From the NCBI RefSeq assembly GCF_003334355.1, contig NZ_QOWP01000076.1: a stretch of 2,326 nt of DNA; one strand, written 5' to 3'. The position numbers were made by a program, and so were the translations under genes. Positions within the stretch are counted from its first letter, which is position 1. Every line of letters begins with the position of its first letter. The stretch comes from Escherichia coli. Lineage in GTDB: Bacteria; Pseudomonadota; Gammaproteobacteria; Enterobacterales; Enterobacteriaceae. Below, piece after piece: positions 123-2,326 of this stretch. A model generated the notes under the pieces. The model was not told where the DNA came from. It saw only the letters and a program-made list of their open reading frames with translations, and searched no databases.

Positions 123-2326
123 GGTTAAGCGACTAAGCGTACACGGTGGATGCCCTGGCAGTCAGAGGCGATGAAGGACGTGCTAATCTGCGATAAGCGT
201 CGGTAAGGTGATATGAACCGTTATAACCGGCGATTTCCGAATGGGGAAACCCAGTGTGTTTCGACACACTATCATTAACTGAATCCATAGGTTAATGAGG
301 CGAACCGGGGGAACTGAAACATCTAAGTACCCCGAGGAAAAGAAATCAACCGAGATTCCCCCAGTAGCGGCGAGCGAACGGGGAGCAGCCCAGAGCCTGA
401 ATCAGTGTGTGTGTTAGTGGAAGCGTCTGGAAAGGCGCGCGATACAGGGTGACAGCCCCGTACACAAAAATGCACATGCTGTGAGCTCGATGAGTAGGGC
501 GGGACACGTGGTATCCTGTCTGAATATGGGGGGACCATCCTCCAAGGCTAAATACTCCTGACTGACCGATAGTGAACCAGTACCGTGAGGGAAAGGCGAA
601 AAGAACCCCGGCGAGGGGAGTGAAAAAGAACCTGAAACCGTGTACGTACAAGCAGTGGGAGCACGCTTAGGCGTGTGACTGCGTACCTTTTGTATAATGG
701 GTCAGCGACTTATATTCTGTAGCAAGGTTAACCGAATAGGGGAGCCGAAGGGAAACCGAGTCTTAACTGGGCGTTAAGTTGCAGGGTATAGACCCGAAAC
801 CCGGTGATCTAGCCATGGGCAGGTTGAAGGTTGGGTAACACTAACTGGAGGACCGAACCGACTAATGTTGAAAAATTAGCGGATGACTTGTGGCTGGGGG
901 TGAAAGGCCAATCAAACCGGGAGATAGCTGGTTCTCCCCGAAAGCTATTTAGGTAGCGCCTCGTGAATTCATCTCCGGGGGTAGAGCACTGTTTCGGCAA
1001 GGGGGTCATCCCGACTTACCAACCCGATGCAAACTGCGAATACCGGAGAATGTTATCACGGGAGACACACGGCGGGTGCTAACGTCCGTCGTGAAGAGGG
1101 AAACAACCCAGACCGCCAGCTAAGGTCCCAAAGTCATGGTTAAGTGGGAAACGATGTGGGAAGGCCCAGACAGCCAGGATGTTGGCTTAGAAGCAGCCAT
1201 CATTTAAAGAAAGCGTAATAGCTCACTGGTCGAGTCGGCCTGCGCGGAAGATGTAACGGGGCTAAACCATGCACCGAAGCTGCGGCAGCGACGCTTATGC
1301 GTTGTTGGGTAGGGGAGCGTTCTGTAAGCCTGTGAAGGTGTGCTGTGAGGCATGCTGGAGGTATCAGAAGTGCGAATGCTGACATAAGTAACGATAAAGC
1401 GGGTGAAAAGCCCGCTCGCCGGAAGACCAAGGGTTCCTGTCCAACGTTAATCGGGGCAGGGTGAGTCGACCCCTAAGGCGAGGCCGAAAGGCGTAGTCGA
1501 TGGGAAACAGGTTAATATTCCTGTACTTGGTGTTACTGCGAAGGGGGGACGGAGAAGGCTATGTTGGCCGGGCGACGGTTGTCCCGGTTTAAGCGTGTAG
1601 GCTGGTTTTCCAGGCAAATCCGGAAAATCAAGGCTGAGGCGTGATGACGAAGCACTACGGTGCTGAAGCAACAAATGCCCTGCTTCCAGGAAAAGCCTCT
1701 AAGCATCAGGTAACATCAAATCGTACCCCAAACCGACACAGGTGGTCAGGTAGAGAATACCAAGGCGCTTGAGAGAACTCGGGTGAAGGAACTAGGCAAA
1801 ATGGTGCCGTAACTTCGGGAGAAGGCACGCTGATATGTAGGTGAAGTCCCTCGCGGATGGAGCTGAAATCAGTCGAAGATACCAGCTGGCTGCAACTGTT
1901 TATTAAAAACACAGCACTGTGCAAACACGAAAGTGGACGTATACGGTGTGACGCCTGCCCGGTGCCGGAAGGTTAATTGATGGGGTTAGCGGTAACGCGA
2001 AGCTCTTGATCGAAGCCCCGGTAAACGGCGGCCGTAACTATAACGGTCCTAAGGTAGCGAAATTCCTTGTCGGGTAAGTTCCGACCTGCACGAATGGCGT
2101 AATGATGGCCAGGCTGTCTCCACCCGAGACTCAGTGAAATTGAACTCGCTGTGAAGATGCAGTGTACCCGCGGCAAGACGGAAAGACCCCGTGAACCTTT
2201 ACTATAGCTTGACACTGAACATTGAGCCTTGATGTGTAGGATAGGTGGGAGGCTTAGAAGTGTGGACGCCAGTCTGCATGGAGCCGACCTTGAAATACCA
2301 CCCTTTAATGTTTGATGTTCTAACGT
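123..2326 (+). rRNA. rrl: 23S ribosomal RNA (large-subunit rRNA), 5' ~2,200 nt covering domains I-IV and the start of domain V; 3'-truncated by the window edge
   Basis: Begins with the canonical enterobacterial 23S 5' end GGTTAAGCGACTAAGCGTACACGGTGGATGCCCTGGCAGTCAGAGGCGATGAAGGACG. Conserved landmarks fall at the expected E. coli positions with a constant offset of +122: G745/U746/U747/G748 at 867-870, the GTPase-associated centre 1051-1108 at 1173-1230 with A1067 at 1189 and A1095 at 1217, A1618 at 1740, G1835 at 1957. Downstream the offset is +124: helix 69 GGCCGTAACTATAACGGTC at 2030-2048, U1939 at 2063, C1962 at 2086, A2030 at 2154, G2057/A2058/A2059 at 2181-2183, G2069 at 2193. The window ends at about 23S position 2202, inside the L1-stalk region. 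Confidence 0.97.

What the first reader, a model, noticed from the sequence alone, without database searches (positions are those of the whole stretch)
1981..2010. Two-nucleotide longer, structurally compensated GNRA hairpin in domain IV relative to the E. coli reference as recalled
Landmark mapping gives an offset of +122 from the 5' end through G1835 (window 1957) but +124 from helix 69 onward (U1911 at 2035). The window therefore has 72 nt between those landmarks where E. coli numbering allows 70. The only place I can localise the difference is 1989-1998, GCG-GTAA-CGC, a 3-bp stem capped by a GUAA tetraloop. My recollection of the E. coli K-12 rrlB reference here is GC-GCAA-GC, a 2-bp stem with a GCAA tetraloop. 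Both are GNRA tetraloops, so the change preserves the fold, which fits a functional rRNA allele (operon or strain heterogeneity) rather than a degraded copy. This is the only length difference I could detect in the window.
Basis: partly seen in the sequence, partly recalled or inferred. Interest (0 to 1): 0.3.

Follow-up and report, generated by a model that had tools for sequence, protein, structure and literature searches.

The report
Common 23S rRNA helix-68 tip variant
The window's 23S rRNA has one extra base pair under the tetraloop at the tip of helix 68 compared with E. coli K-12 rrlB. It is an ordinary, structure-preserving allele found in about a third of all E. coli 23S gene copies.

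Summary
Window 1989-1998 reads GCG-GUAA-CGC where six of the seven K-12 MG1655 rrl genes read GC-GCAA-GC. The two extra bases (1991, 1996) are the only length difference from rrlB in the window. They sit at the apex of helix 68 in domain IV.

The feature is ordinary.
- K-12 rrlA already carries a different +2 form, GCC-GCAA-GGC, and this is published.
- Four alleles account for 37,873 of 37,902 23S copies in 5,426 complete E. coli genomes. The window allele makes up 12,801 copies in 2,076 genomes, with a median of 7 copies per carrier genome.
- In the nearest genome (PSS-12) all seven copies carry it.
- Across Gammaproteobacteria with identical flanks, the extra pair covaries (C-G, G-C, A-U, U·G). 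The loop switches between GNRA, UUCG and CUUG classes.

The two bases therefore form a real base pair, and the loop sequence is not constrained. The H68 contacts listed in the paper I read lie below the tip, and another paper states that the E. coli tip does not dock.

Best reading: a neutral or nearly neutral compensated polymorphism, spread among operons by gene conversion. Interest is low.

The parts
123..2326 (+). 5' 2,204 nt of a 23S rRNA gene, cut off by the 3' end of the window. It is the rrlE copy of an E. coli rrnE operon.
   Evidence: Rfam RF02541 scores 2063.9 bits over model positions 1-2228. The best genome match lies between purH-16S-tRNA-Glu and 5S-yjaB-metA. The spacer 1-122 is identical to the K-12 rrlE spacer.
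1957..2029 (+). Helix 68 of domain IV (23S 1835-1905 in rrlB numbering). It is a long irregular hairpin, and the variant lies at its apex.
   Evidence: Structure line of the Rfam LSU alignment. The ViennaRNA minimum-energy fold of this segment has the same topology for the window, short and rrlA alleles. G1835 maps to window 1957.
1989..1998 (+). Apical stem-loop GCG-GUAA-CGC: a 3-bp stem capped by a GNRA tetraloop. In K-12 rrlB it is GC-GCAA-GC (23S 1867-1874).
   Evidence: The isolated hairpin is predicted at -2.7 kcal/mol, against -0.1 for the 2-bp form.
1991..1991 (+). Extra G, the 5' half of the additional base pair directly under the loop.
   Evidence: Gap in the alignment to six K-12 copies. 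It falls in an insert column of the Rfam model. It pairs with 1996, and this pair covaries across taxa.
1992..1995 (+). GUAA tetraloop (GNRA class). Position 1993 is U where K-12 has C.
   Evidence: Loop classes at this site across taxa: GCAA, GUAA, GAAA, GUCA, UUCG, CUUG, CUCG.
1996..1996 (+). Extra C, the 3' half of the additional base pair.

Best explanation
This is a natural, common allele of the E. coli 23S rRNA gene. The tip of helix 68 (domain IV) carries one additional Watson-Crick pair, G1991-C1996, directly beneath a GNRA tetraloop (GUAA rather than GCAA). The extra pair lengthens a marginal 2-bp apical stem to 3 bp and leaves the rest of helix 68 unchanged.

Shown: the position of the change, the pairing, the retained fold, how common the allele is, and its presence in all seven operons of the closest genome.

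Inferred:
1. The change is neutral or nearly neutral for ribosome function. It lies beyond the H68 contacts described in the paper I read (bridge B7a, the E-site tRNA acceptor stem, H75, H76). The E. coli tip is reported not to dock on anything.
2. It spreads among the seven rrn operons by gene conversion. That would explain why most carrier genomes have it in every copy while some are mosaics.
3. Its nearest mutational neighbour is GCG-GCAA-CGC, one loop transition away. That form is present at low frequency in E. coli and also occurs in Enterobacter, Kluyvera and Pseudenterobacter.
For: Position and identity:
- The indels are exactly at 1991 and 1996, and there are no other length differences from rrlB.
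- Rfam places them as symmetric insertions flanking the loop.

Fold:
- Predicted H68 topology is the same for all alleles. Predicted stability is -30.8 kcal/mol for the window allele, -28.2 for the short form and -31.5 for the rrlA form.

Population counts, from a total of 37,902 23S places in 5,426 genomes:
- GCG-GUAA-CGC: 12,801 places in 2,076 genomes, median 7 per carrier.
- GC-GCAA-GC: 21,569 places in 3,563 genomes.
- GCC-GCAA-GGC: 2,872 places in 797 genomes.
- GCG-GCAA-CGC: 631 places in 183 genomes.
- All seven 23S genes of PSS-12 carry the window allele.
- Single-copy carriers exist, such as ET151 and E105.

Pairing: in 16 distinct +2 sequences from Gammaproteobacteria, the extra pair is a standard pair in 16 of 16. 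Four pair types occur (CG 7, AU 4, GC 4, UG 1). None of 500 shuffles reach the observed covariation score, and slid controls collapse.

Loop freedom: the loop varies among GNRA, UUCG, CUUG and CUCG between identical flanks.

Literature:
- H68 contacts are described at 1846-1848, 1850-1852/1891-1893, 1853/1854/1889/1890 and 1856/1886-1888, all below the tip (PMC5309774).
- Two extra bases in this region of K-12 rrlA only (PMC4696680).
Against: - Neutrality is inferred and not measured. No growth, assembly or translation data for this allele were found.
- Homogenisation to seven copies in most carriers would also fit weak positive selection.
The taxonomic distribution is therefore a sample, and Salmonella and Shigella were not assessed.
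- The flanks in the covariation alignment were fixed by the search pattern, so only the one extra pair is informative.
- The direction of change (which allele is ancestral in Escherichia) was not resolved.
Confidence: 0.88

Rival explanations
1. Functionally specialised ribosome variant. The longer tip changes H68 reach or rigidity, and so tunes L1-stalk and E-site dynamics, subunit joining or 50S assembly. It would be kept by selection rather than drift.
For: H68 sits at the centre of a network linking the E-site tRNA, H75, H76 and bridge B7a (PMC5309774). The extra pair adds about 2.6 kcal/mol of predicted local stability. The allele is fixed in all seven copies of most carriers. Published work argues that other E. 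coli rRNA variants (16S rrsH) have phenotypic effects (PMC6312700).
Against: The change is 10 or more nucleotides beyond the most distal described contact, 1856/1886-1888. The E. coli tip is reported as undocked. Four alleles coexist in the species, often within one genome. The loop class is free to vary among relatives. This is the pattern of a weakly constrained site.
Confidence: 0.07
2. The allele entered E. coli by horizontal transfer or recombination of an rRNA segment from another member of the Enterobacteriaceae. This is a rival account of origin, as opposed to stepwise mutation within Escherichia.
For: The G-C third pair with a GCAA loop is found in Enterobacter cloacae, E. hormaechei, Kluyvera and Pseudenterobacter. 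It is one transition from the window allele. The same GCG-GCAA-CGC form is a minor E. coli allele. Going from the short form to the window form needs three changes.
Against: No recombination tract was examined. Outside the tip, the window differs from K-12 rrlE at only four scattered positions, which does not point to a foreign block. The identical allele in Photobacterium lucens (L046) shows that this small hairpin can arise independently.
Confidence: 0.15
3. Sequencing or assembly error, or a decaying or pseudogenised rRNA copy.
For: None beyond the bare fact of a difference from the K-12 reference.
Against: There are 12,801 exact copies in 2,076 independently finished genomes, and all seven copies in PSS-12 carry it. 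The change is compensated. The rest of the window differs from K-12 rrlE at only four positions and scores 2,064 bits against the LSU model.
Confidence: 0.01

Closest known systems
E. coli K-12 MG1655 rrlA helix-68 tip allele (GCC-GCAA-GGC)
   Same: Same site, same +2 length, same architecture (3-bp stem plus GNRA tetraloop) and the same flanks. This length heterogeneity is published for K-12 (PMC4696680).
   Different: The extra pair is C-G rather than G-C, and the second loop base is C rather than U, so three positions differ. The rrlA type is rarer (2,872 copies, median 4 per carrier) than the window type (12,801 copies, median 7).
GCG-GCAA-CGC allele (minor in E. coli; also in Enterobacter cloacae, E. 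hormaechei, Kluyvera and Pseudenterobacter)
   Same: Identical stem, including the extra G-C pair, and also a GNRA loop. It differs from the window by one base only.
   Different: The loop is GCAA rather than GUAA. In E. coli it has only 631 copies in 183 genomes, with a median of 2 per carrier, usually alongside other alleles (for example in Nissle 1917).
K-12 rrlB-type short tip (GC-GCAA-GC), which is also the Rfam bacterial LSU consensus
   Same: Same helix and same flanks, with a GNRA cap.
   Different: The apical stem is one base pair shorter. The isolated hairpin is predicted to be about 2.6 kcal/mol less stable. It is the majority allele in E. coli, at 21,569 copies.
Eukaryotic H68 GAAA tetraloop docked on the H22-H88 kissing loop
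   Same: The homologous helix, capped by a GNRA tetraloop (PMC8338941).
   Different: In eukaryotes the loop makes a conserved long-range tertiary contact. The same paper states that E. coli H68 does not form it. Free exchange of GNRA with UUCG and CUUG loops among Gammaproteobacteria fits an undocked loop.

Membership tests
Bacterial large-subunit rRNA (Rfam RF02541) | Score above the family's gathering threshold, with the consensus secondary structure. | tested here: met
   2063.9 bits against a threshold of 50, model positions 1-2228. The local re-scan of 1930-2070 scores 132.3 bits, with H68 and H69 aligned.
Functional (non-degraded) E. coli rrl copy | Near-identity to reference copies, location in a complete rrn operon, and compensated changes only. 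| tested here: met
   Four point differences from K-12 rrlE outside the tip. The rrnE context has 16S, tRNA-Glu, 23S and 5S. The tip change is a paired insertion. Expression itself was not tested.
GNRA tetraloop hairpin | Four-nucleotide loop with G at position 1, any base at 2, a purine at 3 and A at 4, closed by a Watson-Crick pair. | tested here: met
   GUAA at 1992-1995, closed by G1991-C1996.
GNRA tetraloop hairpin | Sheared G·A pair and the characteristic backbone turn in three dimensions. | not testable with these tools
   This needs an experimental structure of a ribosome carrying this allele.
E. coli helix-68 tip +2 length class (as in K-12 rrlA) | Two extra nucleotides at the apex of H68 that form a third stem pair. 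| tested here: met
   Same length and register as rrlA, with no gaps between the window and rrlA at this site. The pair covaries across taxa.
E. coli helix-68 tip +2 length class (as in K-12 rrlA) | Sequence identity with the rrlA allele. | tested here: not met
   Three of the ten hairpin positions differ (1991 G/C, 1993 T/C, 1996 C/G). It is a distinct allele of the same class.
Tetraloop-receptor docking of the H68 tip (eukaryote-type H22-H88 contact) | The loop adenosines contact a receptor formed by H22 and H88. | not testable with these tools
   The literature states that E. coli lacks this contact (PMC8338941). Loop-class switching among relatives argues against a conserved receptor. No structure of this allele was examined.

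The most novel reading that the evidence does not exclude
Adding one base pair moves and rotates the GNRA tetraloop (by roughly 3 Å and 30 degrees, from A-form geometry). This could let the H68 tip of carrier ribosomes make, or make more often, a tertiary contact that K-12-type ribosomes lack. One candidate is the H22-H88 region that receives the H68 tetraloop in eukaryotes. Such a contact would measurably alter late 50S assembly, cold tolerance or L1-stalk and E-site dynamics. The four coexisting alleles would then be a natural series of ribosome variants with a phenotype.
Probability: 0.04. Interest if true: 0.45.

Novelty: already known. Interest (0 to 1): 0.07.

Why it matters
It matters little for biology. 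It is a textbook case of a compensated indel at a weakly constrained rRNA hairpin tip, and of concerted evolution among rrn operons.

There are three practical points:
- E. coli 23S numbering downstream of about position 1868 shifts by +2 in roughly 43% of gene copies (the three longer alleles combined). This is relevant to mapping modification or resistance sites such as 1911-1917, 2058 and 2503 in non-K-12 strains.
- The four tip alleles are a simple marker for strain typing, or for operon tracking in long-read rrn amplicon work.
- "The E. coli reference" is itself heterogeneous at this site.

Tried and rejected
- My first allele count (59-nt query) pooled two alleles. The 28-nt run to the left of position 1993 let the GCAA-loop variant seed. 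One search exposed this, and (53-nt queries) corrected it.
- The "100.0%" whole-window hit to PSS-12 is really 2,325 of 2,326. Every PSS-12 copy has G where the window has A at 1651. The exact window sequence is therefore not in the complete-genome collection.
By design the scan also excluded the short consensus form, so it gives no denominators.
- I looked for a paper on intraspecific 23S diversity in the ECOR collection, recalled from memory, but did not find it in the library.
- The 23S-diversity paper PMC2672173 and the rRNA-variation papers PMC6312700 and PMC11883441 say nothing specific about H68.
- The artefact or pseudogene reading was considered and rejected.
- A simple tandem duplication as the origin of the two extra bases was considered and rejected. 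The inserted G and C lie on opposite sides of the loop.

Full report
**What the window is.** Rfam identifies window 123-2326 as the first 2,204 nt of a bacterial 23S rRNA (RF02541, 2,064 bits). It is preceded by spacer sequence that matches the StyR-44 family at 7-115. The best whole-window match in 5,426 complete E. coli genomes is strain PSS-12. There it lies in the order purH, 16S, tRNA-Glu, 23S, 5S, yjaB, metA, which is the rrnE operon. The 122-nt spacer is identical to the K-12 rrlE spacer.

**Checking the observation.**
- Window 1989-1998 reads GCGGTAACGC.
- I fetched all seven rrl genes of K-12 MG1655 and aligned each to the window.
- Against rrlB the only gaps in the whole window are at 1991 (G) and 1996 (C), with one substitution between them (1993, T for C).
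- G1835 maps to window 1957 and U1911 to 2035.
This is the same length as the window and differs by a flipped pair (C-G to G-C) and the loop base.
- Maeda et al. 2015 already note that 23S region 1869-1884 is altered, with two extra bases, only in rrlA (PMC4696680).

**Where it sits in the structure.**
- The Rfam alignment of 1930-2070 places the site at the apex of the long hairpin 1957-2029, which is helix 68 of domain IV.
- The bacterial consensus there is a 2-bp stem with a 4-nt gcaA loop. The window's extra g and c fall in insert columns immediately on either side of the loop.
- ViennaRNA gives the same H68 topology for the short, rrlA-type and window alleles, at -28.2, -31.5 and -30.8 kcal/mol. 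The isolated apical hairpin goes from -0.1 (2 bp) to -2.7 kcal/mol (window).

**How common it is in E. coli.** I used megablast queries whose flanks are too short to seed on any other allele. The total is 37,902 23S places in 5,426 genomes.

| Tip allele | Copies | Share of copies | Genomes | Median per carrier |
|---|---|---|---|---|
| GC-GCAA-GC | 21,569 | 56.9% | 3,563 | 7 |
| GCG-GUAA-CGC (window) | 12,801 | 33.8% | 2,076 | 7 |
| GCC-GCAA-GGC (rrlA type) | 2,872 | 7.6% | 797 | 4 |
| GCG-GCAA-CGC | 631 | 1.7% | 183 | 2 |

- Together these make 37,873 of the 37,902 places.
- An earlier count of 13,445 pooled the last two G-C-pair alleles because of cross-seeding. One search revealed this.
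- Genome memberships sum to 6,619 for 5,426 genomes, so several hundred genomes at least are mosaics. K-12 is one (six short copies plus one rrlA type). Nissle 1917 carries both GUAA and GCAA copies.
- Carriers of the window allele range from one copy (E105, ET151) to all copies.
- In PSS-12, the genome closest to the window, I located all seven operons. All seven 23S genes are 2,906 nt long and carry GCG-GTAA-CGC.
- The allele is therefore mostly lineage-wide and homogenised, and occasionally specific to one operon.

**Is the extra pair a real pair?**
- The +2 forms fall into 16 distinct sequences.
- The added pair is C-G in 7, G-C in 4, A-U in 4 and U·G in 1. It is a standard pair in 16 of 16.
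- None of 500 column shuffles reach the observed covariation score, and sliding the partner by one to three columns removes the signal.
- The other pairs in that alignment were fixed by the search pattern and carry no information.
- The loop itself changes class between identical flanks: GCAA, GUAA, GAAA, GUCA, UUCG, CUUG, CUCG. From established knowledge, rRNA hairpins that act as simple caps are known to interchange among the GNRA, UNCG and CUUG tetraloop classes.
- The exact window allele also occurs in Photobacterium lucens (L046). The one-step neighbour GCG-GCAA-CGC occurs in Enterobacter cloacae, E. hormaechei, Kluyvera and Pseudenterobacter.

**Functional context.**
- Mohan and Noller (PMC5309774) list these H68 contacts:
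  - 1846-1848, bridge B7a;
  - 1850-1852 and 1891-1893, the E-site tRNA acceptor stem;
  - A1853, A1854, A1889 and A1890, A-minor contacts to H75;
  - 1856 and 1886-1888, H76 of the L1 stalk.
- All of these lie below the apical hairpin (1867-1874).
- Gerhardy et al. (PMC8338941) show that in eukaryotes the H68 GAAA tetraloop docks on the H22-H88 kissing loop. They state that E. coli H68 does not form such a contact.
- Together with the loop-class variation, this supports an inference, not a measurement: the tip is a weakly constrained cap, and the extra pair is neutral or nearly so.

**Verdict.** The feature is an ordinary compensated polymorphism that is already present in thousands of annotated genomes. 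Its length class is already described for K-12 rrlA. What remains open is minor:
- which allele is ancestral;
- whether the G-C forms arose within Escherichia or were imported;
- whether the tip length has any subtle effect on assembly or E-site dynamics.

I give the last reading about 4-7%.

Noticed in passing
window 1651 (23S position 1529): The window has A where all seven K-12 and all seven PSS-12 copies have G. The exact 61-nt context with A is the best match in only 9 of 5,096 matching records. In the context GA[A]GCAC-UACG-GUGCU, the change would turn a G·U pair into A-U. This rare variant is why no genome in the collection matches the window perfectly.
   Followed up: partly
window 1847-1857 (23S 1725-1735): Seven linked differences separate two K-12 operon groups. 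The window, rrlB, rrlG and rrlE read TCCctCgcGGA, and rrlH, rrlD, rrlC and rrlA read CGActTgcTCG. The arms change together (TCC/GGA against CGA/TCG), so this is another compensated hairpin swap between operons.
   Followed up: partly
window 259 and 264 (23S 137 and 142); PSS-12 rrlG in L013: PSS-12 rrlG alone swaps T259/A264 to A/T. These two bases close a TTCG loop (gtgtgT-ttcg-Acacac), so this is a flipped closing pair in a single operon.
   Followed up: no
window 7-115: The spacer upstream of the 23S gene matches Rfam StyR-44 (RF01830, 124.9 bits). This appears to be the ordinary 16S-23S spacer leader of enterobacterial rrn operons.
   Followed up: no
window 1333, 1845, 2256 (23S 1211, 1723, 2132): Single-base differences from K-12 rrlB, rrlG and rrlE (T for C, A for G, A for T). 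Six of the seven PSS-12 copies match the window at every 23S position except 1651, so these belong to that lineage's 23S haplotype.
   Followed up: partly
E. coli genome collection, plasmid records: Thirteen of the 37,902 places matching this 23S segment lie on records classed as plasmids, and seven of them carry the window allele. 23S rRNA genes on plasmid records are unusual. They could be misassemblies or chromids.
   Followed up: no
L069 (Tolypothrix campylonemoides scaffold), L126 (Microbacteriaceae MAG), L105 (Paracaedibacteraceae MAG): Contigs assigned to a cyanobacterium, an actinobacterium and an alphaproteobacterium carry an H68 segment with exact E. coli-like (gammaproteobacterial) flanks and the C-GCAA-G tip. 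Contaminating gammaproteobacterial rRNA contigs in these assemblies seem the likely explanation.
   Followed up: no
L046 (Photobacterium lucens), 316-349: A member of the Vibrionaceae carries exactly the window's tip, GCG-GTAA-CGC, with identical flanks. Independent origin of the same small hairpin seems likely.
   Followed up: no
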